A stretch of DNA of 64,000 bases from Deltaproteobacteria bacterium (GTDB taxonomy: Bacteria > Desulfobacterota > GWC2-55-46 > DRQE01): positions 126,206 through 190,205 of the forward strand of contig WGFM01000012.1 in the NCBI GenBank assembly GCA_015492245.1. The letters run 5' to 3'. Of this stretch, positions 9,108 through 59,371 are shown piece after piece (the stretch's first letter is position 1; each line of letters opens with the position of its first letter). The translations under genes and the position numbers were made by a program. The notes beneath the pieces are model-generated. The model saw nothing but the letters and a program-made list of their open reading frames with translations, had not been told where the DNA came from and searched no databases.

Positions 9108-9608
9108 ATGAAGAAGAAGGAAGGACCCATACTGATAGTGGGTGTGGGAAACATCCTTTTTTCAGACGAAGGGCTCGGTGTGAGGACGCTGGAATACCTT
9201 GAGAAACACTACCACATCCCCGAGGGGCTGACCCTTCTCGATGGTGGAACCACGGGGCTCAGCCTTGTAGACTGCCTGCTCGATGCCAGGAAGGTGATAA
9301 TAGTGGATGCCATAAGGGGTGGAAATCCACCGGGCTTCGTATACAGTCTTGAGCTGAAGGAGGTGCCATCCGAGATAAGACCCCTTTTCAGCCTCCATCA
9401 ACTGGGGATGAACGAGATTGTAGGGCTTTCAAGGGTTCTCAATGATAAACTCGATATAGTGCTTGCAGGGATGGAACCCATGGAACTCTCGCCCTCCACA
9501 GAGCTGTCTGCGGTTGTAAGGTTGAGGATGCCGCTACTTGCAGAGGCCATAAAGAAGGAGGTCAGAAAGAGCGGGGCAAGGCTACGAAAGAGAAGATGCA
9601 GAGGGTGA
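9108..9608 (+). CDS. [NiFe]-hydrogenase maturation endopeptidase (HyaD/HybD/HycI family)
   Basis: 'ILIVGVGNILFSDEGLGV', 'DGGT.G' and 'IIVDA' motifs. It overlaps the hypF start. Confidence 0.85.
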   Translation: MKKKEGPILIVGVGNILFSDEGLGVRTLEYLEKHYHIPEGLTLLDGGTTGLSLVDCLLDARKVIIVDAIRGGNPPGFVYSLELKEVPSEIRPLFSLHQLGMNEIVGLSRVLNDKLDIVLAGMEPMELSPSTELSAVVRLRMPLLAEAIKKEVRKSGARLRKRRCRG

Positions 9609-11881
9609 GAATACGCATAAAGGGGATTGTGCAGGGCGTGGGGTTCAGGCCCTTTGTGTACAATCTTGCAGAAAAATATGGTCTCAGGGGGTTCTGCATG
9701 AACGACACAGAGGGTGTGCTCATAGATGTGGAGGGGACAGATATGGAGGGCTTCATAGGAGAGATCAAGAGGTGTCATCCTCCACTTGCAAGGATAGAGT
9801 CCCTGTCTGTAGAAAGGCTCGAGCCTGCCACCTTCTCTGGGTTCAGGATAGAGGAGAGCCAGACCCGCACAAAGAGGTTTCCCCTCATACCACCTGATGT
9901 GGCCATCTGTAGAGAGTGCCTGGGGGAGCTTTTCAGCAGAGAAGACAGGAGATACCTCTATCCCTTCATAAACTGCACAGACTGTGGCCCCCGTTATTCC
10001 ATAATAGAAGATGTTCCCTACGACAGGGAACGCACCACCATGCGCACCTTCCGGATGTGCGAGGCCTGCCACCAGGAATACCACAACCCCAGGGACCGCC
10101 GTTTCCATGCCCAGCCCAATGCCTGCTGGCAGTGTGGCCCACAGGTGTGGCTTGTAGACAGAGAGGGCGCTACCCTCTGTGAAAAAAAGATGGCGGTGGA
10201 GAAGGCAAGAGAACTCATAAAAGAGGGGGCAATAGTTGCACTGAAGGGGCTCGGGGGGTTCCATCTTGTGTGCGATGCCGAAAACGATGAGGCGGTGAAG
10301 ACCTTGAGACAGAGAAAACACCGCCCCGCAAAGCCACTGGCGGTTATGTCGCAGAATCTTGAGACCCTGAGGACCTACGCAGAGGTAAGCCCCACAGAAG
10401 AAAGGCTCCTTACATCCCTGGAAAGCCCCATAGTGCTGGTAAGGAGGCTTCCCCGAAATCCCCTTTCAGCACTTGTAGCCCCCGGTATGGAAATATTGGG
10501 CGTCATGCTCGCCTACACACCGCTGCATCATCTGCTCACAGGGGGGTTCAGAGCGCTGGTCATGACAAGTGGCAACATCGCAGATGAGCCCATAGCCATA
10601 TCCAACGAGGAGGCACTGGAAAGACTGCACAGTATTGCAGATTACTTCCTTCTTCACAACCGCCCCATACACACCCGTGTGGATGACTCCATAGTAAGGG
10701 TCGGTAAGAATCGTCCCATTGTCTTGAGGCGCGCAAGGGGCTATACCCCCCATGTGGTGCGCATAGCCCAAAGAGGCCCCGAGCTTGTGGCCTTTGGAGG
10801 AGAGAAGAAGCAGAGCCTCACCCTTGTGAGCTCTGGCTACGCCATAATGAGCCAGCATATAGGAGAGCTCTCTACAGTAAAGACCCTTGAGTTCCTCAAG
10901 GAGAGCCTTGAAAAACTCAAGAGGCTGTTCTCTGTTGAGCCCACCGTTGTTGTCCACGATATGCACCCCCACTACCTTACCACAGGGTTCGCAAAGGAAT
11001 ATGCAAGAGAGCATTCCATAGAGGACGCCAGAGTGATTGCCGCCCAGCATCACCATGCACACATAGCAAGTGTCATGGCAGAGTGGGGGCTTGAGGATGA
11101 ACTGATAGGGGTCAGTTTCGATGGCACGGGCTACGGGACCGATGGGTGCGTGTGGGGTGGAGAGTTCATGGTGGCAACGAGAGAGGACTTTACAAGGGAG
11201 GCACACCTCAGGTATATGCCCATGCCAGGCGGAGAAAAGGTAATAGAGGAGCCCTGGAGGATGGCAGCCTCCTATCTTCATGCCATACATGGCGAAAGAC
11301 TGGAGGACTGGCCAGCGGAGTTTCTCGAGCGGGTGGGTGAGAAGAGGGTGGTGGCCATATCAAAGCTCATAGAACACAGGATAAACACCCCCCTTACATC
11401 GAGCGGGGGAAGACTCTTCGATGCGGTGGCCTCCATTACAGGGCTTAAAGACCATGTAACCTTCGAGGGCGAGGCCGCCATGGTCTTGACAGAGCTGGCC
11501 GAAGGAGAGAAAGAAGGTGGCTGCTATCCCTTCGAGATAAAGGAGAACGGCACCATGGAGATCAATACCCTGCCCACAGTAGAGGCCATAGCCGAAGAGA
11601 TGAAGGATGGTGTGCCTGTATCCATCATATCCCGAAGGTTTCACAACACCCTTGTGCTCATGATGGTAGAGGTGGTGGACATACTCTGTGAGAGAACAGG
11701 CATACGCGATGTTGTCCTTTCAGGCGGGGTGTTCCAGAATATGCTCTTGCTCCATGGGGTGGTGGAGGGGCTAAAGAAGATGGGGCTCAATGTATACCAC
11801 AACCAGCGCTTTCCCATAAACGATGGCGGGCTATCACTGGGGCAGGCACTCATAGGGCTTGAAAGAGCCAGAAGAGGTTGA
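9596..11881 (+). CDS. hypF: carbamoyltransferase HypF
   Basis: Acylphosphatase domain 'GIVQGVGFRPFVY', two Zn-finger pairs ('C.EC...F.NCT.CGPR', 'C..C..EY....RRFHAQ.NAC..CGP'), and YrdC and Kae1-like domains. Confidence 0.95.
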   Translation: MQRVRIRIKGIVQGVGFRPFVYNLAEKYGLRGFCMNDTEGVLIDVEGTDMEGFIGEIKRCHPPLARIESLSVERLEPATFSGFRIEESQTRTKRFPLIPPDVAICRECLGELFSREDRRYLYPFINCTDCGPRYSIIEDVPYDRERTTMRTFRMCEACHQEYHNPRDRRFHAQPNACWQCGPQVWLVDREGATLCEKKMAVEKARELIKEGAIVALKGLGGFHLVCDAENDEAVKTLRQRKHRPAKPLAVMSQNLETLRTYAEVSPTEERLLTSLESPIVLVRRLPRNPLSALVAPGMEILGVMLAYTPLHHLLTGGFRALVMTSGNIADEPIAISNEEALERLHSIADYFLLHNRPIHTRVDDSIVRVGKNRPIVLRRARGYTPHVVRIAQRGPELVAFGGEKKQSLTLVSSGYAIMSQHIGELSTVKTLEFLKESLEKLKRLFSVEPTVVVHDMHPHYLTTGFAKEYAREHSIEDARVIAAQHHHAHIASVMAEWGLEDELIGVSFDGTGYGTDGCVWGGEFMVATREDFTREAHLRYMPMPGGEKVIEEPWRMAASYLHAIHGERLEDWPAEFLERVGEKRVVAISKLIEHRINTPLTSSGGRLFDAVASITGLKDHVTFEGEAAMVLTELAEGEKEGGCYPFEIKENGTMEINTLPTVEAIAEEMKDGVPVSIISRRFHNTLVLMMVEVVDILCERTGIRDVVLSGGVFQNMLLLHGVVEGLKKMGLNVYHNQRFPINDGGLSLGQALIGLERARRG

Positions 11882-11923
11882 TAATCCGACCATTGCTTTA
11901 TTACTGACAGGGAGGCAGAATCT

Positions 11924-12142
11924 GTGTGTCTTGGTATACCAGCGCTTGTGATAGGGCTTGAGGGGGAAGAGGCCCTCGTTGATGTTGCAGGCGCAAGAAG
12001 AAAGGTCTCAACCGCCCTTGTAGAGGGCATAGAAGAGGGAGACTATGTGATAGTCCATGCAGGCTTTATCATACAGAAGATAGACGCAGACAGGGCAGCT
12101 GAAACGATAAGGATGATAAGAGAGCTCGGCAGAAGACCATGA
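11924..12142 (+). CDS. hypC: hydrogenase assembly chaperone HypC/HupF
   Basis: GTG start giving 'MCLGIPA' (essential Cys2). It is 72 aa and lies between hypF and hypD. Confidence 0.9.
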   Translation: MCLGIPALVIGLEGEEALVDVAGARRKVSTALVEGIEEGDYVIVHAGFIIQKIDADRAAETIRMIRELGRRP

Positions 12143-13233
12143 GATACATAGACGAGTTCAGAGACAGCGCACAGGTAAAGGGCATACTCGATGAGATAGA
12201 ATCCCTGGGGTTGAGGGAAGGGATAAACCTCATGGAGATATGCGGCACCCACACCCACTCCATATCCAGGTATGGAATAAGGGGGGTCATACCCAGGGGG
12301 ATAGGGCTTCTTTCAGGCCCAGGCTGTCCTGTGTGTGTAACCACGGAGGAAGAGATAGATGCCATCATAGGGTTTGCAAGAGAGAACAGGGATGTGGTGA
12401 TAGCCACATTTGGCGATATGCTCAAGGTGCCCGCAAGTGTGGGCTCTCTCGAGGGGGTGAGGGCAGAGGGCTCGGATGTAAGGGTGGTATACTCACCACT
12501 GGATGCGTTGGAGGTGGCCATAGGGGAGCCAGAAAAAGAGGTCATCTTCTGTGCCGTGGGTTTTGAGACCACCGCCCCCACGGTGGGTGCAACGGTGCTC
12601 AAGGCCATGGAGCTTGGGGTGGATAACTTCTCTGTCATCTCTTTACACAGGCTCACTCCACCGGCAATGCGCTCACTCATGGAAGAAGGAGAGGTCAGGA
12701 TAGATGGCTTTATCTGCCCCGGCCATGTAACCGCAATCACAGGCAGTGAGGCCTACAGGTTCCTTGCAGGAGAGTACAACACACCCTGCGTTGTGGCAGG
12801 GTTCGAACCACTGGATGCACTGCTGGCCATATACATGCTCCTTAAGCAGATAAAAGATGGTCGGGCAGAAATAGAGGTCGAGTACTCAAGGGTTGTAACC
12901 CCGAAGGGTAACACAAGGGCAAAAAGGATTATGGAAAGACTCTTCAGGGTTGTGGACACCAGGTGGCGCGGATTCGGCCTCATAGCGGCAAGTGGGCTCA
13001 AGCTAAAAGAGGAGTTCTCTCTATACGATGCAGAAAGAAGGTTCTACATAAGAAGGATGGAGGCTGTGGATAAGGACCAGGGCTGCAGATGCGCAGATGT
13101 AATAAGGGGTATCATAACACCAGAGGAATGTAGCCTCTTTTCCACCCTCTGTAGACCAGAGAGCCCGCTCGGGCCCTGCATGGTATCCACAGAGGGCACC
13201 TGTTCGGCATACTACAGATACGAGAGGAGATAA
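12139..13233 (+). CDS. hypD: hydrogenase formation protein HypD
   Basis: 'YIDEFRD', 'MEICGTHTH', 'GPGCPVCV' and 'GFETTAP' motifs. Confidence 0.95.
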   Translation: MRYIDEFRDSAQVKGILDEIESLGLREGINLMEICGTHTHSISRYGIRGVIPRGIGLLSGPGCPVCVTTEEEIDAIIGFARENRDVVIATFGDMLKVPASVGSLEGVRAEGSDVRVVYSPLDALEVAIGEPEKEVIFCAVGFETTAPTVGATVLKAMELGVDNFSVISLHRLTPPAMRSLMEEGEVRIDGFICPGHVTAITGSEAYRFLAGEYNTPCVVAGFEPLDALLAIYMLLKQIKDGRAEIEVEYSRVVTPKGNTRAKRIMERLFRVVDTRWRGFGLIAASGLKLKEEFSLYDAERRFYIRRMEAVDKDQGCRCADVIRGIITPEECSLFSTLCRPESPLGPCMVSTEGTCSAYYRYERR

Positions 13234-13236
13234 CCC

Positions 13237-14232
13237 ATGAGCCAGAGGATAACCCTTGCCCATGGTGCAGGGGGCACAAGGACAGAGGAACTCGTAAAAG
13301 GGGTCTTCCTCGAGGCCTTTGGCAACCCCATACTGGAGGAACTCTCGGATCAGGCAACGGTAGAGATGGAGGGAAAACGTGTTTCCCTTACCACAGACTC
13401 CTATGTGGTCTCGCCACTTTTTTTCCGGGGTGGTGATATAGGAAAGTTGTCTGTGTACGGCACAGTCAACGACCTCTCTGTTGGTGGGGCAACCCCTGTT
13501 TACATGAGCGCATCATTCATAATAGAGGAGGGCACGGAGCTCTCACTCCTTAAGCGTATTGCAGAGAGCATGAGGGATGCCCTCCGTGAGTGTAACACAA
13601 GGATAGTTACAGCTGACACAAAGGTGGTTGAGCGGGGGAAGGCAGACACCCTCTTTATAAACACCACGGGGGTGGGCCTGGTGGATGACCATGTAGAGCT
13701 GTCTGCCACTAACATAGAGGAGGGCGATGTGGTCATCCTTTCAGGCACCGTTGCAGAGCACGGTGCGGTAATACTTGCAGAAAGGGCAGATATAGACATA
13801 CCCTTCAGGAGCGATTGTGCACCACTCAACGGGCTTACAAGTGTCATGCTCCGTGCAGGGGGTGTCAAGCTCATGCGTGATGTTACAAGGGGTGGGCTTG
13901 CAACCATACTCAATGAGTTTGTGGATGCCTCTGGAAAGGGTATAATCATAGAGGAGGGGCTTGTGCCCATAAGAGAAGATGTGAGGGGGGTATGCGAGAT
14001 ACTCGGGATGGACCCACTCTACCTTGCCTGCGAAGGACGCCTTGTTGCCATAGTAAGCCCTGAAGCTGCGGACAGGGTGCTCCATGCCATGCACTGCCAC
14101 CCCATGGGCAGGGGCGCAGCCGTGGTGGGTAGAATCGTGGCACAGGGAAGAGCCGTGATATTGAGGACAACCATGGGGGTTGAAAGGGTGGTGGGAAAGC
14201 TTTCAGGAGAGAATCTGCCCAGGATATGTTAA
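13237..14232 (+). CDS. hypE: hydrogenase expression/formation protein HypE
   Basis: PurM-like fold, 'ITLAHGAGG', and the C-terminal 'PRIC' thiocarboxamide-carrying Cys motif. Confidence 0.93.
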   Translation: MSQRITLAHGAGGTRTEELVKGVFLEAFGNPILEELSDQATVEMEGKRVSLTTDSYVVSPLFFRGGDIGKLSVYGTVNDLSVGGATPVYMSASFIIEEGTELSLLKRIAESMRDALRECNTRIVTADTKVVERGKADTLFINTTGVGLVDDHVELSATNIEEGDVVILSGTVAEHGAVILAERADIDIPFRSDCAPLNGLTSVMLRAGGVKLMRDVTRGGLATILNEFVDASGKGIIIEEGLVPIREDVRGVCEILGMDPLYLACEGRLVAIVSPEAADRVLHAMHCHPMGRGAAVVGRIVAQGRAVILRTTMGVERVVGKLSGENLPRIC

Positions 14233-25433: not shown

Positions 25434-25450
25434 TTCAACACCTCCCTACA

Positions 25451-25978: not shown

Positions 25979-25990
25979 CTTATCACCTCC

Positions 25991-26173
25991 TTAAGGACTG
26001 TATGAGGGAAGGTCAGGTATCTGCACTATCTCCATAAGCCCCCATACTGTATATACCAGGGTCGGCACTGCGACACCGAAGAAGAAAAGGAGCATTATAT
26101 TGTCATAAAACAACTGCCATGCAGGGATTGGCTCTTCTTCCTGTTCTTCTATTTTTCTTTCTTCGTCTGCCAT
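25991..26173 (-). CDS. small one-helix protein following oxidase subunit I (paralog 2)
   Basis: 'MADEERKIEEQEEE' acidic N-terminus followed by a TM helix. It sits between the two oxidase modules. Confidence 0.5.
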   Translation of the reverse strand: MADEERKIEEQEEEPIPAWQLFYDNIMLLFFFGVAVPTLVYTVWGLMEIVQIPDLPSYSP

Positions 26174-26212
26174 GGCTAAAACCCTCCTTCAGTTTGTGGT
26201 TTGTAATCCTCT

Positions 26213-27655: not shown

Positions 27656-27667
27656 CGTCCACCTCCT

Positions 27668-28195
27668 CTATTTTACCTCGAATTCTGTCATCATTATGTG
27701 ATGAGCCAGTCCACAGTATTCAAGACACCATACCTCATACTTACCAGGCTCTGTGAAGTTCACATAGAGACGGTTCACATAATCTGGCATGGCCTGTGTC
27801 TGGGCTATAAGCCAGCCATCCTTGTAGATACCGAAACCATGGTTCACATCGTTTGCCATAACATCGAACCTGACCCAGCCCCTTGGAACTTCTGTCTCCG
27901 ACATGTCGAACATGAACTGACTCGACATAACCTTCACAACGAAGGGCTTGCCAGTTACCCTTGACTCCACTATCTGCGGATAGGGGAAGGAGTAGATACC
28001 CACACCAAACAGTAATATACTCACTATCAGGAGCCCCCAGAAATACTCCCTTCTCAGACGATAGCCCCTCTCGGTTACACTCTTATAGTCCTGCTGTGGC
28101 TGAGTCCTTGAACCGACCCACCAGAAGATAGCCGCAATGACCACGGTTGACACAAGTATGGATACCCCTACAAGTATTTGTATTGTGTGGGACAT
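27668..28195 (-). CDS. oxidase subunit II with CuA centre (paralog 2)
   Basis: Two N-terminal TM helices plus a cupredoxin domain, with 'DVNHGFG' and 'CLEYCGLAHHIMM'. Confidence 0.85.
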   Translation of the reverse strand: MSHTIQILVGVSILVSTVVIAAIFWWVGSRTQPQQDYKSVTERGYRLRREYFWGLLIVSILLFGVGIYSFPYPQIVESRVTGKPFVVKVMSSQFMFDMSETEVPRGWVRFDVMANDVNHGFGIYKDGWLIAQTQAMPDYVNRLYVNFTEPGKYEVWCLEYCGLAHHIMMTEFEVK

Positions 28196-36399: not shown

Positions 36400-36476
36400 G
36401 GCGGTGTAGCTCAGGTGGTTAGAGCAGGGGTCTCATAAGCCCCGAGTCGGTGGTTCGAGTCCACCCACCGCCACCA
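36400..36476 (+). tRNA. tRNA with CAT anticodon (elongator Met, or Ile2 if lysidine-modified), CCA encoded
   Basis: Hand-folded cloverleaf: acceptor GGCGGTG/CACCGCC, D-arm GCTC..GAGC, anticodon stem GGGGT/GCCCC, loop CTCATAA, T-arm GGTGG TTCGAGT CCACC, then A-CCA. The G1-C72 pair argues against an initiator. Confidence 0.9.
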
Positions 36477-36516
36477 TACCTCGACTTTTGAACATCGACG
36501 CTACCCTATCTTGTGG

Positions 36517-37151
36517 CTATACAATGTGCCCACACAGTTCGGCGGACAGTCCCACGGCTTCGTGTTGAAAATTGAGTATAAATAGCTTCTTATCTATAAG
36601 TTCACAAATCGGTTGTAGGTTTTTATCTTTCTTTAAGACTTTCTTAAATCTGTCTCGAGAAACCCTGAAGACAGGGGCATTACCCCAAGCTGCAGCTACT
36701 GTTTGAGTAGAATTTTTAACTATCCAGGAAGGGTCTAAGATAGCATATTGGTAAGTTGGTTTGATGATGTATAGAATTTTGGTATCTTCTTTGGGTACCT
36801 TTTTTTCAGCCTTCTATTTTTAGGAGCAATTTTTGAAATTTTGAAATCATATGCACTCAATAGTTCTTTTGCGTATTGAAACTCTATGTACTTAGCCTCT
36901 CCGCTTGAGTATTTAACGATAAAGTCAGGATCCCTTGTTATCCCACCCTTTCTTAGAAACCATATAAACTTATCACCACCAGACCTTTCTACAATAGCGT
37001 TTTTATCCTCTTCATGAATCTTGTCTCTGAGCCAACGCAGGACCTCAAGCTCTACGATTGCTTTCTGTTTCATATCCTTGCGATATTCAAGATAGGTTCT
37101 TGATTTAATATCGCTTGATTGGGCATATGTTGTTTTTGTGTCCAGATTCAT
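36517..37151 (-). pseudogene. putative type II restriction endonuclease (PD-(D/E)xK-like), frameshifted in an A7 run
   Basis: The track ORF 36735..37151 contains 'DPDF...GEAKYIEFQYAK'. After the A7 run at 36800-36806, a second frame stays open for about 96 codons to TAG at 36517 ('KVPKEDTKILYIIKPTYQYAILDPSWIV...'). One extra A would join the two frames. Confidence 0.55.
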
Positions 37152-37156
37152 TGTTC

Positions 37157-38209
37157 TTAAACAAACAGTCTGGTCTGATAATTGTCTAAATTCTCAACTG
37201 CAAGCTCTGCTATATCAGGAACTATCTCGTAACCTACGCCATTTCTTTTAAGATCAGCAGCTGCTTCCAATGTTGTTCCACTTCCTAAAAATGGATCTAA
37301 GATTGTTTCTCCTACAAAAGAGAATGCTTTTATAATTCTATATGGTAATTCATAAGGGAAAGGTGCAACATGTGATCTGTTGTCTCCGCTATTCTGCGGT
37401 TTCATCGTCCAAACATCGGTATTCTTTATGCTCAGCCAAAAATCTTTGTCAAGTCTCGACTCTTCTTTTTGCCTTTTTGTTAAGTGTCCGTATTTGTTGA
37501 AACCTTTCTTGTCTGGTTTGTTAAACTCTAAGATAAACTCGTGCATGTTGTTTATCAAGATTCCTCCGGGGTATGGGTATGTCCCAAAGTGAGCTCTAAC
37601 TCCGTGCGTCTTATGCCATACAATATTTCTTTTAAAGATGAAACCGATTTCTTACATTACATCTATCGTTCTTCCAACTAAATTGAGTGATTTAAAACCA
37701 TTATTGTTGTCCCTTACTGGTAAATTCATGATATTTATAAAAGCCTTTCTTCCTGGTTGGAGAACTCTGAAGACCTCTTTCCACACCATGCTTATTTTTT
37801 CAAACCATTCATCGAGGTCATGGATACTGCCCAGGTCATTCTCCATGGGTCTTTTGGTGTACATCTTGGCATTGAAGTAGGGCGGAGAAGTAATCATCAA
37901 GTGAATAGAGTTGTCTTCCAAGTCTTCCATCTTCATCGCATTTTTTACATAGATTCTTTGTGTAGTGTTGTTTATTGTCAGTATGTTCTCAGTTGGCACA
38001 CTCTTCCTTTTGTTGTTTCTGCTGTGGTTAGAATGCTCTTTTTCGTATCTTTTCAGCTCTTTCAGGTCAAATCTTTTTTGCCCACTCGCGGCAAGAGTGC
38101 ACTTGAGCTTTTTGGCTTTCACTAAATCGTGCAAACTTTGCACAGTTATTCCTAAATATTTCGCTGCTTCTGTAGAAGATAGGTATTTTCGTTCTTTATA
38201 ATCGTTCAT
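37157..38209 (-). pseudogene. beta-class N4/N6 DNA methyltransferase with N-terminal HTH, interrupted by one in-frame TAA
   Basis: HTH 'LSSTEAAKYLGITVQSLHDLV', motif IV 'TSPPY', then TAA at 37652-37654. The same frame continues 'EIGFIFKRNIVWHK...HEFILEF...HVAPFP..LP...DPFLGSGTT' (motif I). Confidence 0.75.
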
Positions 38210-53798: not shown

Positions 53799-54275
53799 TC
53801 AGGCCGCTTTCTCCTTCTTGTGTCCTTCCACCTTTACCTCTACCTTCCTTGGCAGTGCCTTAGACTCTGCCGGCATGGAGATGTGAAGCACACCATTGCG
53901 GCAGGATGCCTCTATCTTTTCGGTATCCACACCCTCTGGCAGTGTGAAGGTCCTCTCGAACCTGCCATAGGAGGTCTCGCGAACAAGGTATTCACCCTTT
54001 TCCTCTTCCTTTTCGCATTTCCTCTCACCCTTTATGGTGAGCTGGTTGCCGACCACAGAGATGTCCACATCCTTCGGATCCACCCCTGGCAGATCAGTCT
54101 TTATGTGGAGTCTGTCCTCCTTGATGTAGCTTTCAACAGGGGGAAACCACTCGCCTTTGAACCAGCTTGGTGCTATTCCGCTAAAGGTCCTCTTGAAGAG
54201 CTCATCCATCTCCCTGTGGAGTGTAGAGAGTTCCTCAAAGGGATCCCATTTTCTGAGCCTCAACATCTGAATCAC
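53799..54275 (-). CDS. Hsp20/alpha-crystallin family small heat-shock protein
   Basis: 'P.V....ED...I..DLPGV...D..I.V....L.I.G.R', 'ER..G.F.R...LP' and 'A....GVL.I..P' motifs. Confidence 0.92.
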   Translation of the reverse strand: MIQMLRLRKWDPFEELSTLHREMDELFKRTFSGIAPSWFKGEWFPPVESYIKEDRLHIKTDLPGVDPKDVDISVVGNQLTIKGERKCEKEEEKGEYLVRETSYGRFERTFTLPEGVDTEKIEASCRNGVLHISMPAESKALPRKVEVKVEGHKKEKAA

Positions 54276-54318: not shown

Positions 54319-54346
54319 AATATAGACCCGAAAGGAGGGATGTCAA
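54319..54346 (-). promoter_or_regulatory. putative sigma-70 promoter of hsp20
   Basis: On the minus strand: TTGACA, a 16-nt spacer and TATATT, about 40 nt upstream of the hsp20 ATG. Confidence 0.4.
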
Positions 54347-55482
54347 GGGGTGTGCCCCGAGTAGGGGGAGAAAAAACCCTTCGCCACAGAGACCATGTTC
54401 TTGCCGCTATCCTTTGCCATGTACATGGCCCTATCCGCGGCCCTTATGAGGACATCCCTCATCTCCTGTAGCCTCAACCCTGGCCTTACATTACGCCTGA
54501 GCGAGGCAACCCCTATGCTGGCCGTTATGAGTCTTTTTATCTTCAGGGAAGGAATACTGCCGTCTTCTTTGGAAAGGAAGGTATGATTCTCTATGGACTT
54601 TCTCAGCCTTTCAGCGTATCTTCTGGTATACTCTATACCCCTGCCGGGTATTATTATGGCAAACTCGTCCCCGCCATAGCGCGAAGGGATGATGGAGTCA
54701 TCCCCTGTGTTGAGAAGAAGGAAACCGAGTTCCTTGAGAAGCTCGCTTCCTGCAAGGTGGCCGTAGGTATCATTTACCTCCTTGAAGTGGTCCAGGTCCA
54801 GGAAGATGAGCCCCAGGTCCTTACCGTCATGGGTTGCCTTCCTAAGCTCTTTCAACAGGCGATCGAACAGGAACCTGTCATTGTAAAGCCCTGTGAGGTT
54901 GTCCCTTATGGAGAGTTCCCCGAATCTTTTTGCATCCAGGAAGTTCTGTATGAGTGTGGATGTATAGCCGGCGAATATCTTGAGAAGCTCAAGGTCTGTT
55001 CTGTCGTAGTTTATGCCGTCAAGCTTGTTTATAAGCTCCAGCACCCCTATGGTTGCATTCTTTATCTGTATGGGCACGCATATTATGGAGCGTGTTCTGA
55101 ACCCTGTTATCCTGTCTATCTCCCTGTAAAAGTCCCTGTCCTTTTCCACATGTCTGCTTATGCAGGGTCTGCCTGTGCGATAGCTCTTACCGGCTATGCC
55201 CGTAGAGATAGAGAGCACAGAGCCGGCAAGCCTTCTTGAGCCCTTGCCATAGCATGCAACAAAGAAGAGCCTGCCGGGTTTCTTCTTTTCTTCGGTGAGC
55301 ACAGGGTCATCCAGCAGTATGGAGCCAGATTCAGATGGAACGAACCTGTTGGCCCACATGAGGATGCTCTTAAGGGTGCCCTTTATGTCCACCTCAGAGG
55401 GGCTCCTGTCCTGCTCGAGTTTTTTCCTCCTGAGGACATGCTCAAGAACGCTACTTCTGGCAACATATATTCGCACAACCAA
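54343..55482 (-). CDS. GAF-domain diguanylate cyclase (GGDEF)
   Basis: GAF region ('SGSILL.D......F..C.G', 'SIICVPI....ATIGVLELINK') and the GGDEF domain 'D.LTGLYN.R', 'FLDLDHFK.VND..GH..G' and 'RYGGDEFAI'. No RxxD I-site lies upstream of GGDEF. Confidence 0.9.
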   Translation of the reverse strand: MVVRIYVARSSVLEHVLRRKKLEQDRSPSEVDIKGTLKSILMWANRFVPSESGSILLDDPVLTEEKKKPGRLFFVACYGKGSRRLAGSVLSISTGIAGKSYRTGRPCISRHVEKDRDFYREIDRITGFRTRSIICVPIQIKNATIGVLELINKLDGINYDRTDLELLKIFAGYTSTLIQNFLDAKRFGELSIRDNLTGLYNDRFLFDRLLKELRKATHDGKDLGLIFLDLDHFKEVNDTYGHLAGSELLKELGFLLLNTGDDSIIPSRYGGDEFAIIIPGRGIEYTRRYAERLRKSIENHTFLSKEDGSIPSLKIKRLITASIGVASLRRNVRPGLRLQEMRDVLIRAADRAMYMAKDSGKNMVSVAKGFFSPYSGHTP

Positions 55483-55540
55483 AGATCCCCACGATTTTGT
55501 AAATTATACAATTCTACTTTAGAAGGCCCTGTTTTTTCAA

Positions 55541-56902
55541 CTATTCTTTTGGGTGTTCAGGGTGAAGGGGTAGTGTCAGGCTGAAGGTGGTTCCCTCCCC
55601 GGGGGTGCTCTCCACCTCCATCCTGCCCCCGTGCCTTTCCACGATGAGCTTTACAAGGCTTAGCCCCAGGCCCGTGCCCCTTGCAATCTTCTCTGCGTTG
55701 CTGCCCCTGTAGAACTCATCGAATATGCGCCCTATCTCATCGGGGGGTATACCTATACCTGTATCAGATACCTTTATCATCACACAGTCATCAAGGGTTG
55801 TTGCGCCGATGGTTATCCTTCCTCCCTCGGGGGTGTAGTTCATGGCGTTCTCTACGAGGTTTTTCAGCACACAGAAGAGCTGCTCCCTGTCGGCAAGAAG
55901 CTCAATGGTAGAGGGCTCGAGGTTTATATCTACAAGGAGTCGTTTTTTTCTTCCATCGATGAGCGAGACCACATCCCCCATGAGGGATGAAAGTTCCACG
56001 GGCTCGAGCACAAGGCCCTTCTTCAGCCTCATCCCCGATATGTCAAGAAGCTCTGCCACATAGCCATGGAGAAACTCTGCCTTCCTTCTCACACCCTCCA
56101 CAAGTGCCACAGCCTCTTTTGGCATCTTTCTTGAATATTCATCTGTCAGCACATCCAGCATGGTGAGCACGGAAGAGAGGGGGCCCTTTATATCGTGGGC
56201 AACCATTCGGACATATTCGGACTTGAGCCTGTCCTTCTCTTTCAGTGCGAGGTTGAGGTCTTTTAGTCTTCTTGTCTTTTCTGCAAGCTCAATCTCGCCC
56301 TCCCTGAGCCTTTCCGATATGGAGGAGACCATGTAGGTGGTAAAGAATATGGAGGTTGTGAAGGCCGTATAGACCGCGAACAGATAGACAGTGCTGTTGT
56401 AAAGCTCTACAGGGATGAACCCTTCCATGTGATGGTGTGGTATGATGGAAAGATGCTCCAGAAAGACCATTGCACCCACAGAGAGTGAGACCAGTGTTGC
56501 CTGCATGTATGCGGTGGCAGGTGGCAGGAATATGCCGGTAAGCACGGTATGGAAGATGAAGTAGAATATAAAGGGGTTCTCGAGACCCCCTGTGTAATGT
56601 ATGAGAACGGTAAGGGCCACTATGTCCACCACTGCCTGTAAGAGGACGAACCTTTCGGCCCTCTGCGGAAGGTCTATGGAGACGAGATACCTGCTCTTTA
56701 TCCTTCTCAGATAGAGGTAGAAGGCCGTGTTGTAGAGCGCTATGAACAGTGCTATGAGTGTTATCTCGACAAGTGGTGCATCTATCGATAGCCCCTTTGC
56801 AACATTGCCTGCCAGAAAGAGGCTTGCTGCGGTGAGCCACCGTATGTTTATGTACCATCGGAGTCTCTCTGTAAGTTCGGCTTCTTTGAGGCTTATCTTC
56901 AT
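55541..56902 (-). CDS. membrane sensor histidine kinase
   Basis: About 6 N-terminal TM helices, a coiled coil, the H-box 'MVAHDIKGPLSSV', N-box 'NLVENAMNYT', and G-boxes 'DTGIGI' and 'GTGLGLS'. No PAS domain was seen. Confidence 0.9.
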   Translation of the reverse strand: MKISLKEAELTERLRWYINIRWLTAASLFLAGNVAKGLSIDAPLVEITLIALFIALYNTAFYLYLRRIKSRYLVSIDLPQRAERFVLLQAVVDIVALTVLIHYTGGLENPFIFYFIFHTVLTGIFLPPATAYMQATLVSLSVGAMVFLEHLSIIPHHHMEGFIPVELYNSTVYLFAVYTAFTTSIFFTTYMVSSISERLREGEIELAEKTRRLKDLNLALKEKDRLKSEYVRMVAHDIKGPLSSVLTMLDVLTDEYSRKMPKEAVALVEGVRRKAEFLHGYVAELLDISGMRLKKGLVLEPVELSSLMGDVVSLIDGRKKRLLVDINLEPSTIELLADREQLFCVLKNLVENAMNYTPEGGRITIGATTLDDCVMIKVSDTGIGIPPDEIGRIFDEFYRGSNAEKIARGTGLGLSLVKLIVERHGGRMEVESTPGEGTTFSLTLPLHPEHPKE

Positions 56903-57279
56903 TCTTTCAAGAGGGTCTTTATCCTCTCTACAAGTGTGGCAGGTCTTACAGGTTTCTCCAGGAGTTCGTCTGCCAGCAGGTAGTCCTCGTCCTCTGTGGA
57001 GAAGCTGAACCCTGTAACGCTGCCAACAGAGGTGAGTATTATTATGGGTATGCTCCTGAGCTCAGGGTGGTTCTTCAGTTTGTAGCTTACCTGGAAGCCT
57101 TCGTCCTTGGTGCGCATCATCACATCGAGTATTATGAGGTCTGGCCTGATGGTCTCTGCCTTCCTGAGCCCCTCTTCACCATCGTATGCACATTCCACGC
57201 TGTAGCCCCTGGCCTCAAGTGCTATCTTGAGGGCATAGGCAAGCTCTCTGTCATCGTCTATTATGAGGATACAGGCCAT
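56899..57279 (-). CDS. stand-alone response-regulator receiver protein
   Basis: 'ILIIDDD', 'DLIILDVMM', 'IIILTS' and 'EKP'. It is 126 aa with no output domain. The stop overlaps the kinase start (ATGA). Confidence 0.9.
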   Translation of the reverse strand: MACILIIDDDRELAYALKIALEARGYSVECAYDGEEGLRKAETIRPDLIILDVMMRTKDEGFQVSYKLKNHPELRSIPIIILTSVGSVTGFSFSTEDEDYLLADELLEKPVRPATLVERIKTLLKE

Positions 57280-58569
57280 TCAGACAAACTCCACATCCAT
57301 TATATGGGTTGAACACGATATGCAGGGGTCATATGCCCTTACAAGCCCCTCGACACCCTTTACAACCTCTTCTCTGCTACAGGGAAGAAGCCCTGGGACA
57401 AGCCCCCTGAGGTCCTCCTCTATGGAGCGAAGGTTCTGGGCTGTAGGGATTATGCAGTTTGCTGACTCTACAAGCCCCTCGTTGTTTACGGTATAGCTGT
57501 GGTAGAGTATGCCACGGGGGGCCTCCACCATGCCTACACCCCGTCCCCAGGTGGTGCCCCATCGAGGGGGCTCCTTCTTAAGCCCCATATCCAGGAGCCT
57601 GTCTACAAGCTCTATCGCGTACTCTGCAAGGTGGACGCACTCTATTACCTGTGCAAGGTTGTTCATGAAGGGGATATGGCATGGCATGGAAAATGGTGCA
57701 TCCTTTAGAAACCTTCGTGCAAGGGGTGTGAGTCTACGATGGTTGTTGTTGAGCCTTGCAAGGGCACCCACCATGTAGGTGCCATGTCCTGTCTTTGCAT
57801 GCTTGGCTGTGGAGTGGGGCACCACATATTCTTCCAGCCGGTGTGCGTAGTCCTCCTTTTCGATGAATCCGTCTATATTCGAAAATGGTGTGCCATCATA
57901 CATGCCGTAGCCAGAAGAGGGCTTGAGGGATATGAACTCCCTTGCCTTCTCGAACCCGGGGGTTGAAAAACCACGAAAGGTCTCCCACACCCTGTGGAGT
58001 AGTTCTGTGGCCTCTTCAAGGCGCTCCTTTATCTCGATGAGTTCACATTTCTCTGGCATGTGGAGTGTGCCGCCAGGCACAAGGGAGATGGGATGCACGG
58101 GCCTGCCATTGAGTATGGTGGATATGTGGTTGGCAAGGCCTTTGAGTTTGAGCCCCGGCTCCATAAGAGAGGGATTCTCTTTCAGAAGGGGCAGCACAGA
58201 GTGGGTGCCCATGAAGTCTGGCAGCACCAGAAAATACAGGTGCAGGATGTGGCTCTGTATGGTCTCTGCACAGAGGCAGAGTTCCCTCAAGAGCCCTGTT
58301 CTCCTGGATATTCTCATGCCCAGGGCATCCTCCACCGCTTTCAGGCAGGCACAGGTATGGCTTGCGGAGCATATGCCACAGATGCGCGATATTATGTGGG
58401 CCACTTCCTGGTAGTGTCTTCCCTTTATGAGGGCCTCGAAGAAACGGGGAGACTCTATTATCTCAAGCCTTATCTCTCTTACGGTGCCCTTCCGTATGTC
58501 TACCACTATGTTGCCATGCCCCTCCACACGGGTGAGCTCGCGAATCTCTATGTGGTGGTCTTTGTGCAT
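57280..58569 (-). CDS. [NiFe] hydrogenase large subunit, short cytoplasmic type (group 3-like size)
   Basis: 'RVEGHG', N-terminal 'RICGICSASH' and C-terminal 'DPCISCSTH' Ni-Fe ligand motifs. It is 429 aa with only 7 residues after the final His. Confidence 0.9.
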   Translation of the reverse strand: MHKDHHIEIRELTRVEGHGNIVVDIRKGTVREIRLEIIESPRFFEALIKGRHYQEVAHIISRICGICSASHTCACLKAVEDALGMRISRRTGLLRELCLCAETIQSHILHLYFLVLPDFMGTHSVLPLLKENPSLMEPGLKLKGLANHISTILNGRPVHPISLVPGGTLHMPEKCELIEIKERLEEATELLHRVWETFRGFSTPGFEKAREFISLKPSSGYGMYDGTPFSNIDGFIEKEDYAHRLEEYVVPHSTAKHAKTGHGTYMVGALARLNNNHRRLTPLARRFLKDAPFSMPCHIPFMNNLAQVIECVHLAEYAIELVDRLLDMGLKKEPPRWGTTWGRGVGMVEAPRGILYHSYTVNNEGLVESANCIIPTAQNLRSIEEDLRGLVPGLLPCSREEVVKGVEGLVRAYDPCISCSTHIMDVEFV

Positions 58570-59333
58570 CGCCCTTTTCTGTGTATGTAGAAGCTCGAGT
58601 AAAGGTCGAACCTCTTTGTTATCTCATCATCTCCAAGCCCGTGGTTTCCAAGGGTCTCTCTGTGGGCATCCGTGTTTGCATCATCGAGCAGCCCCCTGCA
58701 TCCCCAGCATATGGAACCAAAGCTCACACACACGGCCCTGCACCCACCCCTTGTTACAGGGCCCATACAGGCAACACCCTTCTCGAACACACAGATGTTG
58801 CCCTCCATCTTGCACTCGTTGCACACCGGATACTCTGGAAGCCCTGGGGGTATGCCGAGGACGAGGGCCTTCACGAACCCGAGGAACTCCTCTTTGGATA
58901 CGGGGCATCCAGGGATGCGATAGTCCACCTCTATAACCTCTTCAACAGGCATGGCAGGTATGTTCTCCACCAGTAATCTATTGGGGGGATTCCTGCCGTA
59001 GACACACTCTGTAACATATTCTGGTGAGAAGCGGTTTTTAAGGGCGTTTATACCCCCTGTTGTGGAGCATGCCCCAAGGGTTATGATGGTCTCTGCACGC
59101 TGGCGTATCTCTTTTAATTTTTCTGCCTCCTCCTCTCTGGTTACACTGCCCTCGATGAAGGCCACCTGGTAGTCATCTCTTTTGAGGTCCGTGGCCTCGC
59201 GGAAGTTGACCACATCCACCCTTGTGGAGAGCTCTCTCAGTTCCTCCTCGCAGTTCAAGACCATGAGCTGGCAGCCCTCGCAGGAGGTGAGCGAGAAGAA
59301 GGCTATCCGTGGTCTTTTGATCCAGCGCATCAT
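58548..59333 (-). CDS. [NiFe] hydrogenase small subunit, no Tat signal, three FeS-cluster Cys sets
   Basis: 'SLTSCEGC', 'GACSTTGG' and 'PGCP' (proximal cluster), plus eight further Cys ('CNEC...C...C...C..C...C..C'). There is no twin-arginine leader. Confidence 0.88.
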   Translation of the reverse strand: MMRWIKRPRIAFFSLTSCEGCQLMVLNCEEELRELSTRVDVVNFREATDLKRDDYQVAFIEGSVTREEEAEKLKEIRQRAETIITLGACSTTGGINALKNRFSPEYVTECVYGRNPPNRLLVENIPAMPVEEVIEVDYRIPGCPVSKEEFLGFVKALVLGIPPGLPEYPVCNECKMEGNICVFEKGVACMGPVTRGGCRAVCVSFGSICWGCRGLLDDANTDAHRETLGNHGLGDDEITKRFDLYSSFYIHRKGRCTKTTT

Positions 59334-59371
59334 ACAGTGAAGATATTATCAGAAAAACCAGGGGCTGTAAA

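What the first reader, a model, noticed from the sequence alone, without database searches (positions are those of the whole stretch)
54343..59333. Two-subunit cytoplasmic [NiFe] hydrogenase packed against a receiver, histidine kinase and GAF-GGDEF cyclase: candidate H2-sensing module
**Observation.** The minus-strand gene order is small subunit, large subunit, receiver, kinase, GAF-GGDEF.
- The small and large subunit genes overlap by 22 nt.
- The stand-alone receiver starts at the base immediately following the large-subunit stop.
- The receiver stop overlaps the membrane histidine kinase start (ATGA).
- The GAF-GGDEF diguanylate cyclase follows after a 58-nt gap.
- The subunits have the sizes of group 3 enzymes (429 and 261 aa, no Tat signal). 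No diaphorase, FAD/NAD, F420 or MvhD partner is adjacent; the upstream neighbour is the divergent selB.

**Interpretation.** Known H2 sensors (HoxBC/HupUV with HoxJ/HupT kinases) establish the principle of a hydrogenase acting as a signal input. Genome surveys have proposed a putative sensory [NiFe] class linked to c-di-GMP enzymes, which to my knowledge has never been characterised experimentally. This locus would combine both outputs: phosphorelay and c-di-GMP. The alternative reading is that the signalling genes simply regulate, or are unrelated to, a catalytic hydrogenase whose partners are encoded elsewhere.
Basis: partly seen in the sequence, partly recalled or inferred. Interest (0 to 1): 0.8.

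Follow-up and report, generated by a model that had tools for sequence, protein, structure and literature searches.

The report
Signalling-linked two-subunit group 3b hydrogenase
A cytoplasmic nickel-iron hydrogenase that has lost its NAD(P)-linked partner subunits sits in one operon with a quinone-sensor-like kinase, a small receiver protein and a c-di-GMP synthase, and this pairing defines a widespread uncultured lineage that may link hydrogen or redox status to signalling, though a true H2 sensor is not shown.

Summary
The gene order and junctions are as described. Small corrections: the GAF-GGDEF gene probably starts at GTG 55476, and an MvhD-domain protein and hyp/protease genes lie elsewhere in the window.

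The hydrogenase is a group 3b (sulfhydrogenase-type) alpha-delta pair, not group 2b or 2c. It belongs to a clade (98.5% NJ bootstrap) nested within canonical four-subunit hydBGDA enzymes. In this clade the large-subunit gene is almost always followed by REC-HK, GAF-GGDEF or both.

Three results weaken the strict H2-sensor reading:
- Sister loci carry the same REC-HK behind a full four-subunit enzyme.
- The kinase has the RegB quinone-site motif (GGLENPF) at the RegB position. The same REC-HK cassette sits next to Nqr, NrfH-type cytochrome and Hdr/Mvh clusters in other phyla.
- The catalytic and FeS motifs match canonical 3b, and the large subunit keeps a protease-processed tail.

Points in favour of a signalling link: HydBG are absent from the locus across the window's whole lineage, no DNA-binding regulator is encoded, and the LSU-REC-HK link survives changes of genomic context.

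Most likely this is a redox/H2-status signalling module built on a 3b core. A direct sensor role is possible but unproven. I rate it a new variant of a known kind, of moderate to high interest.

The parts
59343..59371 (-). sigma-70-like promoter match (TTTACA-17-TAATAT, TG before the -10) just upstream of the small-subunit start; candidate operon promoter in the divergent selB intergenic region
   Evidence: consensus match only, 9/12; sequence
58548..59333 (-). [NiFe]-hydrogenase small (delta-type) subunit, 261 aa. It has no Tat signal and 12 Cys arranged for three [4Fe-4S] clusters (proximal C18, C21, C89, C143, plus 8 C-terminal Cys).
   Evidence: best NCBIfam HydD/ShyD; P. furiosus SHI delta, 9e15, E 9e-47; all Cys conserved in 2- and 4-subunit relatives; no C-terminal extension
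57280..58569 (-). [NiFe]-hydrogenase large (alpha) subunit, 429 aa, group 3b type. Motifs: L1 RICGIC (C64, C67), L2 DPCISCSTH (C416, C419, H422), E16 and R352 present, 7-residue C-terminal tail IMDVEFV.
   Evidence: ShyA/HydA best; SHI alpha 9nez/5yxy, E 3e-71, full length; motifs invariant; clade support
56899..57279 (-). stand-alone CheY-like receiver, 126 aa, with D8-D10, D52, T83 and K109 present. It starts immediately after the LSU stop. It belongs to a REC subfamily with an insertion before the K-P motif that always precedes the 6TM kinase.
55541..56902 (-). membrane histidine kinase, 453 aa: 6 TM helices + HisKA (H236) + HATPase_c. The RegB-type quinone-site motif GGLENPF occupies residues 105-111 in the short TM3-TM4 loop. 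There is no PAS/GAF/HAMP input domain and no RegB Cys265 equivalent.
   Evidence: ActS/PrrB/RegB model aligned over 13-435, 105 bits, below cutoff 350; motif conserved in orthologues and distant homologues; PMC3000548
55503..55540 (-). promoter-like sequence in the HK-GGDEF gap: TTGAAA-18-TAGAAT, and an extended -10 TGTATAAT. It is a possible internal promoter for the cyclase gene.
   Evidence: consensus match only
54343..55482 (-). GAF-coiled coil-GGDEF diguanylate cyclase (377 aa from the likely GTG start at 55476). The active-site GGDEF and the DLDxFKxVND metal site are intact, and there is no RxxD inhibitory site.
   Evidence: AF2 model pLDDT 83; Foldseek best hits Dcsbis 4zmu and Lcd1 cAMP-GAF 5w10
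53799..54275 (-). Hsp20 small heat-shock protein. It is a constant downstream neighbour in the selB-flanked lineage and has its own promoter-like site. A functional link to the hydrogenase is doubtful; it serves as a control showing how far plain synteny is conserved here.
9108..14232 (+). accessory genes acting in trans: HyaD/HybD-family maturation endopeptidase (9108-9608), hypF, hypC, hypD, hypE. The protease is consistent with cleavage of the large-subunit tail.

Best explanation
The locus is an operon-like unit. A group-3b-derived [NiFe]-hydrogenase core (alpha-delta only, diaphorase module lost from the locus) is wired to a redox-signalling set: a RegB-like 6TM kinase, a CheY-like receiver and a GAF-GGDEF cyclase.

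Proposed working:
1. The alpha-delta dimer is a mature, catalytically competent hydrogenase that equilibrates H2 with an as yet unknown cytoplasmic or membrane redox partner.
2. The kinase reads the redox state of the membrane quinone pool through its GGLENPF site and phosphorylates the stand-alone receiver.
3. The receiver has no DNA-binding domain, so it acts by protein contact.
4. The GAF-GGDEF enzyme converts the state into c-di-GMP.

On this view the hydrogenase supplies or biases the reducing signal (H2/redox status to c-di-GMP/phosphorelay) rather than serving as a bulk NAD(P)-linked enzyme. Coupling to the kinase is probably indirect. Any direct partner is more likely the receiver or the GAF domain.

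Shown: the gene identities, motifs, clade and conserved linkage. Inferred: every functional step.
For: Group 3b identity:
- Best curated and solved matches are sulfhydrogenase alpha and delta, over their full length.
- Ni ligands, E16, R352 and all 12 FeS cysteines are conserved.

Clade and linkage:
- The signalling-linked loci form one clade (98.5% of 200 NJ bootstraps) inside canonical hydBGDA enzymes.
- Of about 27 distinct clade loci with enough flank, 4 have REC-HK-GGDEF, about 11 have GGDEF only, about 10 have REC-HK only and 2 have neither.
- LSU-REC-HK adjacency holds in both the selB-flanked and unrelated genomic contexts.
- At least 25 of 120 LSU clusters share a contig with a GAF-GGDEF orthologue, and at least 11 with an HK orthologue.

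Loss of the diaphorase module:
- HydB/HydG are absent from the window and from every locus of the window's lineage.
- They are present in all canonical loci with enough upstream flank and in 6 sister loci.
- An alpha-delta dimer of P. furiosus SHI is stable and active but no longer uses NADPH (PMC3200332).

Signalling parts:
- No DNA-binding regulator is encoded in the cluster, so simple transcriptional control of the hydrogenase by these genes is unlikely.
- The kinase has the RegB motif at the RegB position, conserved in 14 orthologues and in distant homologues (PMC3000548).
- The genes are tightly coupled: TGAATG and ATGA junctions, with no terminator-like site at the LSU-REC or REC-HK junctions.
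Against: - The same REC-HK follows full four-subunit enzymes (L014, L090, L091, L096, L100). The link is therefore not tied to a sensor-like reduced enzyme.
- The REC-HK cassette also flanks Nqr, NrfH-type cytochromes and Hdr/MvhD/Mvh clusters, so it could be a generic redox cassette with no functional tie to H2.
- In the window's lineage the wider synteny is also conserved (selB upstream, Hsp20 downstream). GGDEF adjacency there is weak evidence: Hsp20 is at least as constant.
- The cyclase may have its own promoter.
- The GAF domain looks like ordinary small-molecule GAFs.
- No fusion of hydrogenase and signalling domains was seen in the top 120 hits of three searches.
- HydB/HydG or another partner may be encoded elsewhere in the genome. 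I could not search it.
Confidence: 0.42

Rival explanations
1. Ordinary catalytic hydrogenase plus an unrelated, generic redox two-component cassette. The alpha-delta pair works with partners encoded elsewhere (relocated HydBG, a ferredoxin, or the cytochrome b/FeS/MvhD fusion at 21206-22735). REC-HK and GAF-GGDEF are redox and second-messenger genes that merely travel with respiratory or redox gene clusters.
For: - The REC-HK cassette lies next to Nqr, NrfH-type cytochromes and Hdr/Mvh in other phyla.
- The kinase has its own RegB-like input site.
- Four-subunit sister enzymes carry the same cassette.
- Catalytic motifs, the cleavable tail, the protease and hyp genes are as in catalytic enzymes.
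- L010 keeps the hydrogenase with no signalling gene, and L009 has 4.5 kb inserted before the cyclase.
- An MvhD-domain protein exists in the window.
Against: - In canonical 3b loci the four genes are always contiguous, so a split enzyme would be unusual.
- HydBG are absent from the locus in every member of the window's lineage, yet alpha-delta stays under strong constraint.
- LSU-REC-HK adjacency, often with overlapping or abutting genes, persists across contexts.
- No partner gene is consistently nearby.
Confidence: 0.33
2. Direct H2 sensor in the HoxBC-HoxJ / HupUV-HupT sense. The alpha-delta dimer binds the kinase and/or the cyclase, and H2 oxidation switches phosphotransfer and c-di-GMP synthesis.
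For: - Two-subunit enzyme with no acceptor in the operon.
- Signalling genes are co-oriented and tightly coupled.
- The lineage-wide minimal unit is alpha-delta plus GAF-GGDEF, in one case with abutting genes (L107), which parallels the putative group 2c class (PMC5037454).
- No DNA-binding regulator is encoded.
Against: - The kinase lacks PAS or any cytoplasmic input domain and has a membrane quinone-type site.
- The large subunit keeps the C-terminal tail that regulatory hydrogenases lack (my knowledge of HoxC/HupV).
- The residues at the gas-channel positions (I66, L114) are the same in canonical 3b.
- The small subunit has no extra C-terminal peptide.
- The same kinase follows four-subunit enzymes.
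Confidence: 0.15
3. Reverse direction: the signalling proteins control the hydrogenase after translation. For example, phosphorylated REC or c-di-GMP gates its activity or partner choice, so that H2 evolution acts as a redox valve when the quinone pool is over-reduced.
For: - The REC gene abuts the large-subunit gene in most loci.
- REC has no output domain.
- HydDB describes group 3b as physiologically reversible NADPH-to-H2 enzymes (PMC5037454).
- The RegB-type kinase is active under reducing conditions (PMC3000548).
Against: - No known c-di-GMP- or REC-binding element in 3b subunits.
- No clade-specific insertion in either subunit.
- Without HydBG the valve has no known electron source.
Confidence: 0.1

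Closest known systems
Group 3b NADP-coupled [NiFe]-hydrogenase (sulfhydrogenase SHI/SHII, HydBGDA/ShyBCDA of Pyrococcus/Thermococcus)
   Same: - Alpha and delta subunits are homologous over their full length (E 3e-71 and 9e-47 to solved SHI chains).
- Same L1/L2 motifs (RIC..C, AYDPCISCS.H), three [4Fe-4S] clusters, a short cleaved C-terminal tail, cytoplasmic location.
- Sister loci still have HydB and HydG.
   Different: - No beta/gamma (FeS/FAD-NADP) subunits at the locus.
- Followed by receiver, kinase and diguanylate cyclase genes.
- Forms its own well-supported subclade.
- Scores far below NCBIfam equivalog cutoffs (301 vs 700 bits).
Group 2b regulatory hydrogenase systems (HoxBC-HoxJ-HoxA of Cupriavidus necator, HupUV-HupT-HupR of Rhodobacter capsulatus)
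   Same: - Cytoplasmic two-subunit [NiFe] enzyme without a Tat signal.
- Co-transcribed with a histidine kinase.
- Same principle of a hydrogenase as a signal input.
   Different: - Different hydrogenase group (3b, not 2).
- The large subunit keeps a C-terminal tail and a protease gene is present.
- The kinase is a 6TM membrane protein without PAS.
- The partner is a stand-alone receiver, not an NtrC-type regulator.
- No uptake hydrogenase operon is nearby to be regulated.
Group 2c 'diguanylate cyclase-linked (putative)' [NiFe]-hydrogenases of HydDB
   Same: - Genomic linkage of a cytoplasmic hydrogenase to a GGDEF enzyme.
- Function equally untested.
   Different: - The L2 motif does not match the 2c consensus SFDxCLVCTVH.
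- Nearest relatives are group 3b.
- The cyclase here has a GAF domain and no EAL.
RegB/PrrB/ActS redox-sensing kinases with RegA/PrrA
   Same: - 6TM + HisKA + HATPase architecture.
- GGXXNPF motif in the short TM3-TM4 loop at almost the same residue numbers (105-111 vs 106-112).
- Conserved Arg in TM1.
- RegB is known to respond to the ubiquinone pool (PMC3000548).
   Different: - No Cys265 redox switch.
- Q38 equivalent not identified.
- Far below the NCBIfam cutoff (105 vs 350 bits).
- The cognate receiver has no DNA-binding domain and its gene precedes the kinase gene.
Group C putative sensory [FeFe]-hydrogenases (HydS type)
   Same: A hydrogenase lineage defined by co-transcription with kinases, phosphatases or other signalling genes (PMC5037454).
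   Different: - Unrelated enzyme superfamily.
- Those enzymes carry a fused PAS domain; no fusion is seen here.

Membership tests
Group 3b [NiFe]-hydrogenase | Large and small subunits most similar to sulfhydrogenase alpha/delta, with L1 RxCGxC and L2 DPCxxCxxH nickel ligands | tested here: met
   - ShyA/HydA and HydD/ShyD are the best families; SHI chains 9nez, 5yxy, 9e15 are the best solved matches.
- C64, C67, C416, C419, H422 are invariant.
Group 3b [NiFe]-hydrogenase | Heterotetramer with HydB (FeS) and HydG (FAD/NAD(P)) subunits encoded with alpha and delta | tested here: not met
   - No HydB/HydG homologue in the 64-kb window.
- Absent from all loci of the window's lineage.
- Present in canonical loci and in 6 sister loci.
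- The rest of the genome could not be searched.
Group 3b [NiFe]-hydrogenase | NADP(H)-coupled H2 turnover | not testable with these tools
   Needs enzyme assays. The engineered SHI alpha-delta dimer does not use NADPH (PMC3200332).
Group 2b regulatory (H2-sensing) hydrogenase | Large subunit belongs to group 2 and lacks the C-terminal extension removed by a protease | tested here: not met
   - The top solved and curated matches are all group 3.
- The tail IMDVEFV after H422 is conserved in the clade.
- A HyaD-family protease is encoded at 9108-9608.
Group 2b regulatory (H2-sensing) hydrogenase | Soluble PAS-containing kinase (HoxJ/HupT) and NtrC-type regulator (HoxA/HupR) as partners | tested here: not met
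   the kinase has 6TM_PilS + HisKA + HATPase_c only, and the receiver is a single domain.
Group 2c diguanylate cyclase-linked hydrogenase (putative) | L2 consensus SFDxCLVCTVH | tested here: not met
   The window has AYDPCISCSTH. Consensus as quoted in PMC4853749.
Group 2c diguanylate cyclase-linked hydrogenase (putative) | Co-location with a GGDEF/EAL enzyme | tested here: met
   - GAF-GGDEF lies 58-64 nt after the kinase gene.
- Orthologues lie next to the large-subunit gene in about 15 distinct loci.
RegB/PrrB/ActS redox-sensing histidine kinase | GGXXNPF quinone-site motif in the short loop between TM3 and TM4 | tested here: met
   - GGLENPF at 105-111, between hydrophobic segments 84-102 and 111-129.
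- Conserved in 14 orthologues and 9 distant homologues, with F or L/I at the last position.
- Definition from PMC3000548.
RegB/PrrB/ActS redox-sensing histidine kinase | Conserved R31 and Q38 in TM1 | tested here: inconclusive
   - R21-W22 in TM1 is invariant.
- No Gln lies seven residues later; an invariant Q89 sits in TM3 instead.
- No RegB sequence was aligned directly.
RegB/PrrB/ActS redox-sensing histidine kinase | Redox-active Cys265 between the H box and the ATPase domain | tested here: not met
   The only cysteines are at 344 and 373, inside the ATPase domain.
RegB/PrrB/ActS redox-sensing histidine kinase | Passes the curated family cutoff and pairs with a RegA-type DNA-binding regulator | tested here: not met
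   NF033792 scores 105 bits against a cutoff of 350. The partner is a 126-aa stand-alone receiver.
Active GGDEF diguanylate cyclase | GG(D/E)EF active site and metal-binding Asp residues; RxxD I-site optional | tested here: met
   - RYGGDEF at 268-274 of the 379-aa TTG-start ORF (GGDEF 270-274), and DLDxFKxVND invariant in 60 orthologues.
- The I-site is absent (DDSI instead of RxxD).
- Fold confirmed.
- Activity itself was not tested.

The most novel reading that the evidence does not exclude
The alpha-delta dimer is a genuine third kind of [NiFe] H2 sensor. It would have evolved from a group 3b NADP-linked enzyme by losing the diaphorase module, and would feed both a phosphorelay and c-di-GMP synthesis. 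That would make it the first sensory [NiFe]-hydrogenase outside group 2 and the first hydrogenase experimentally linkable to c-di-GMP.
Probability: 0.25. Interest if true: 0.8.

Novelty: new variant of a known kind. Interest (0 to 1): 0.6.

Why it matters
Hydrogen sensing in bacteria is known experimentally only from group 2b [NiFe] enzymes and a few [FeFe] HydS proteins. The proposed cyclase-linked class (2c) has never been tested.

This locus defines a widespread, uncultured (groundwater/sediment, Deltaproteobacteria/Thermodesulfobacteriota-labelled) branch of group 3b. In this branch a hydrogenase core is persistently wired to a quinone-sensor-like kinase, a CheY-like receiver and a diguanylate cyclase, and the NAD(P) module has been shed.

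If the coupling is real, H2 or redox status would be tied to c-di-GMP-controlled lifestyle switches. It would also show how a catalytic enzyme becomes a signalling input.

It also matters for metagenome annotation. These genes are now scored as 'group 3b, fermentative H2 evolution', which may be wrong for alpha-delta-only members.

Separately, the REC plus 6TM kinase cassette with a RegB-type motif appears to be a general companion of respiratory modules in several phyla and deserves study.

Tried and rejected
- **Group 2c/2b membership:** rejected on the L2 motif, nearest relatives, C-terminal tail and kinase type (PMC4853749).
- **Sensor-type gas-channel substitutions:** the residues equivalent to V74/L122 of standard enzymes are I66/L114. 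Canonical four-subunit 3b enzymes have the same, so this is not informative.
- **Small-subunit C-terminal peptide as in HoxB:** none found, and the 2- and 4-subunit forms do not differ.
- **Rosetta-stone fusions:** none among the top 120 hits for the LSU, HK or GAF-GGDEF.
- **c-di-GMP or other riboswitches in the window:** only one tRNA reached Rfam thresholds.
- **GAF ligand:** the AF2 model and Foldseek found only generic GAF-GGDEF relatives (Dcsbis, phytochrome cyclases, the cAMP-binding Lcd1 GAF). Two conserved Cys (C75, C133 of the 377-aa protein) could not be placed in 3D because no coordinates are returned.
- **Upstream GAF-GGDEF of the four-subunit loci as orthologue of the window's cyclase:** 37% identity, and the distinctive GAF motifs are not shared, so orthology is left open.
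- **Aminicenantes-type 3b loci with receivers and kinases:** different kinases (no GGxxNP motif, hybrid REC-HisKA) and an NtrC-type regulator. This is a separate arrangement.
- **Literature:** searches found no description of a REC/6TM-kinase/GGDEF-linked 3b clade. The Greening et al. 2016 survey itself was not in the library.

Full report
**1. The observation**

The six-frame ORF list shows five co-oriented minus-strand genes at exactly the stated coordinates. Pfam assigns them as follows:
- 58548-59333: Oxidored_q6 (hydrogenase small subunit)
- 57280-58569: NiFeSe_Hases
- 56899-57279: a single Response_reg domain
- 55541-56902: 6TM_PilS + HisKA + HATPase_c
- 54343-55482: GAF + GGDEF

The junctions are as described. 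The subunit genes overlap by 22 nt. The large-subunit stop TGA is followed at once by the receiver ATG. The receiver stop and kinase start share ATGA. The kinase-cyclase gap is 58 nt from the TTG start.

Two small corrections apply. Public gene calls and all orthologues start the cyclase at the GTG two codons later (377 aa), which has a GGGGA ribosome-binding site 9 nt upstream. The gap also contains a good sigma-70-like match and an extended -10 (TGTATAAT), so the cyclase may have its own promoter.

No terminator-like site falls at the hydrogenase-receiver-kinase junctions; the only minus-strand match (56591-56571) lies inside the kinase coding sequence. The upstream neighbour is a divergent selB.

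**2. What the hydrogenase is**

Both subunits are group 3b (sulfhydrogenase) type.
- The best NCBIfam models are ShyA/HydA for the large subunit and HydD/ShyD for the small one. Both score far below the equivalog cutoffs.
- The best solved structures are the alpha and delta chains of Pyrococcus/Thermococcus SHI, aligned end to end. Group 3c, 3d and 3a enzymes follow. The group 1 enzymes below them match only the N-terminal part, and no group 2 enzyme is among the 60 listed.
- The nickel ligands (C64, C67, C416, C419), H422, E16 and R352 are invariant.
- The small subunit keeps all 12 cysteines of three [4Fe-4S] clusters and has no Tat signal.
- The L2 motif AYDPCISCSTH equals that of SHI. It does not fit the group 2c consensus SFDxCLVCTVH quoted in PMC4853749.
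- The large subunit ends in a conserved 7-residue tail after the histidine. The window also encodes a HyaD/HybD-family maturation protease with hypF, C, D and E at 9108-14232.

Maturation therefore looks like that of catalytic enzymes. From my own knowledge, regulatory hydrogenases lack this tail.

**3. Relatives and their neighbourhoods**

A protein search found more than 120 clusters at 51-93% identity, nearly all 429-430 aa, from metagenomes and MAGs labelled Deltaproteobacteria or Thermodesulfobacteriota. I collected 100 related loci and mapped homologues of every window protein, and of HydB/HydG, on them.

All loci at 33-46% identity with enough upstream flank are canonical hydB-hydG-hydD-hydA. 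These come from Hadarchaeota, Nitrospirota, Planctomycetota, Actinomycetota, Chloroflexota, Aminicenantes and others. The HydB/HydG assignment was confirmed with NCBIfam.

All loci at 51% identity or more form one clade, with 98.5% of 200 neighbour-joining bootstraps. It has two branches.

- **Branch I** (100% support). The large-subunit gene is always followed directly by the receiver and the 6TM kinase.
  - Six loci still have HydB and HydG upstream (L008, L014, L090, L091, L096, L100). Three (L012, L013, L099) do not.
  - Three four-subunit loci (L014, L091, L096) also have a GAF-GGDEF gene upstream of hydB, at 37% identity to the window's. L100 has only a fragment of one at its contig end. 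Orthology is unresolved.
- **Branch II.** The window and L002 group with the selB-flanked branch II (79% support).
  - No locus there has HydB/HydG.
  - Basal members (window, L002, L087, L004) have REC-HK-GGDEF.
  - The crown group has lost REC-HK and keeps SSU-LSU-GGDEF-Hsp20. In one case the cyclase gene starts at the base after the large-subunit stop (L107).
- **Exceptions.** L010 has no signalling gene. L009 has 4.5 kb inserted before the cyclase.

Matching contig lengths across the three protein searches gives lower bounds. At least 25 of 120 large-subunit clusters share a contig with a cyclase orthologue, and at least 11 share one with a kinase orthologue.

The most economical history is an ancestor with HydB-HydG-HydD-HydA-REC-HK. 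HydBG was then lost at the base of the window's lineage, and REC-HK was lost later in its crown.

**4. How much the conserved neighbourhood proves**

In branch II the wider synteny is conserved too (PYC, transporter, selD/selB upstream; Hsp20, nusB-rib downstream). Hsp20 is at least as constant a neighbour as the cyclase. GGDEF adjacency within that lineage is therefore weak evidence.

The strong evidence is that LSU-REC-HK holds in both branches, in unrelated surroundings, with abutting or overlapping genes.

**5. The kinase and receiver**

The kinase has six hydrophobic segments and no PAS, HAMP or GAF input domain. [quoted passage not shown] In RegB this motif (GGXXNPF, residues 106-112, same loop) is the ubiquinone site through which the kinase reads the quinone pool (PMC3000548).

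The motif and an Arg-Trp pair in TM1 are conserved in all 14 orthologues and in homologues at 34-41% identity from other phyla. The NCBIfam RegB/PrrB/ActS model aligns over nearly the whole protein but scores well below its cutoff. The redox-active Cys265 has no equivalent. The kinase therefore works like RegB in its membrane domain, but it is not a RegB orthologue.

The receiver has all phospho-acceptor residues. It belongs to a subfamily with a characteristic insertion.

The receiver-then-kinase pair is a mobile two-gene cassette. In an Armatimonadota contig it precedes a LuxR-type regulator and an HdrCB-HdrA-MvhD-hydrogenase cluster. In a Planctomycetota contig it precedes an NrfH/NapC-type cytochrome. 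In a third contig it lies between nqrA-F and multihaem cytochromes.

So the cassette accompanies membrane and redox modules in general, hydrogenases among them.

**6. The cyclase**

The GGDEF site and metal ligands are invariant in 60 orthologues, and there is no RxxD inhibitory site. The AlphaFold model (pLDDT 83) is a GAF-coiled coil-GGDEF protein. Its best structural matches are Dcsbis, phytochrome-regulated cyclases and the cAMP-binding Lcd1 GAF. Nothing points to a particular ligand.

**7. Tests for sensor-specific features**

All were negative or uninformative:
- The residues at the gas-channel positions (I66, L114) are shared with canonical 3b.
- The small subunit has no extra C-terminal peptide.
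- No hydrogenase-signalling fusions turned up.
- No riboswitch is present.

**8. Interpretation**

The proposed link between hydrogenase and signalling genes is supported by comparative genomics. Three findings weaken the specific claim of a HoxBC/HupUV-like or 2c-like H2 sensor:
- The enzyme is a 3b.
- The signalling link predates loss of the diaphorase.
- The kinase has its own RegB-like input and is not hydrogenase-specific.

On the other side, a catalytic alpha-delta pair without any acceptor gene is kept under strong constraint in dozens of genomes, next to signalling proteins and with no DNA-binding regulator. A purely transcriptional-regulation story does not explain that well. An engineered SHI alpha-delta dimer is stable and active but cannot use NADPH (PMC3200332), so such a core can exist and must use another partner.

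I therefore favour (about 0.4) a redox/H2-status signalling module. In it the hydrogenase biases the signal, the kinase reads the quinone pool, the receiver acts by protein contact and the cyclase sets c-di-GMP.

The rivals are:
- a plain catalytic enzyme with partners elsewhere (about 0.33)
- a direct HoxBC-like sensor (about 0.15)
- reverse control of the enzyme by the signalling proteins (about 0.1)

**9. Novelty**

HydDB recognises kinase-linked (2b) and putative cyclase-linked (2c) sensory classes only within group 2, and describes 3b as NADP-coupled (PMC5037454). I found no description of a receiver/6TM-kinase/GGDEF-linked 3b subclade. This is a new variant of a known kind.

What I could not do: search the rest of the genome for HydBG or other hydrogenases, run HydDB, or test transcription or interactions.

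Noticed in passing
window 9108-14232 (+): HyaD/HybD-family hydrogenase maturation protease followed by hypF, hypC, hypD and hypE, about 43 kb from the structural genes. No hypA/hypB and no second hydrogenase were seen in the window.
   Followed up: partly
window 20694-28195 (-): Unusual 509-aa fusion of cytochrome b, two [4Fe-4S] motifs and an MvhD/FlpD domain (21206-22735). It lies next to SCO1/SenC (22739-23560) and two divergent haem-copper oxidase subunit I-like genes (23928-25433, 26213-27655). It could be a membrane electron entry point and a candidate partner for an MvhAG-like hydrogenase core.
   Followed up: partly
window 36400-38209: A tRNA gene (36400-36473) is followed by a 41% GC island. 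The island holds a DNA methylase split into two ORFs (37652-38209 with HTH_17 plus the N-terminal part; 37157-37558 with the C-terminal part) and a 138-aa ORF with no family. This is probably an integrated restriction-modification remnant.
   Followed up: partly
L012:8927-10001, L013:7721-10001, L014:8580-9576, L091:7827-10001, L096:8276-9388, L099:6721-10001: In the sister subclade, 1-3.3 kb of unrelated genes sit between the small- and large-subunit genes on the same strand. They include a HicA/HicB toxin-antitoxin pair, a SIR2-like protein and BamE-like small proteins. Such an interruption of a hydrogenase operon is unusual.
   Followed up: partly
L109:4829-6638, L110:6492-8235, L111:6601-8380: The stand-alone receiver plus 6TM kinase cassette with the GGxENP(F/L) motif recurs in Armatimonadota, Planctomycetota and another lineage. 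There it lies beside Hdr/MvhD/Mvh, NrfH-type cytochrome and Nqr/multihaem cytochrome clusters. It looks like an uncharacterised RegB-like redox two-component family.
   Followed up: partly
L036, L038, L039, L044 (e.g. L038:9275-13234): Aminicenantes/Eubacteriales-labelled hydBGDA loci have a large subunit fused to a HycI protease domain (579 aa). An NtrC-type sigma-54 regulator and a kinase lie upstream. Two stand-alone receivers and a REC-HisKA-HATPase hybrid lie downstream.
   Followed up: partly
window 53799-54275 (-) and orthologous positions in L002, L004, L007, L010, L011, L088, L089, L092, L095, L105-L107: An Hsp20 gene always follows the cluster in the selB-flanked lineage, even where the cyclase is lost (L010). 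It is either pure synteny or an unexplained companion of the hydrogenase.
   Followed up: no
window 54343-55476 (-), GAF domain: Two cysteines (C75 in A-C-x-G-K-G-S, C133 in S-I-I-C-x-P) and the motif FVPSESGSILLDDP are nearly invariant in 60 orthologues of the cyclase. The cysteines might form a redox-sensitive pair, but their spacing in 3D could not be checked.
   Followed up: no
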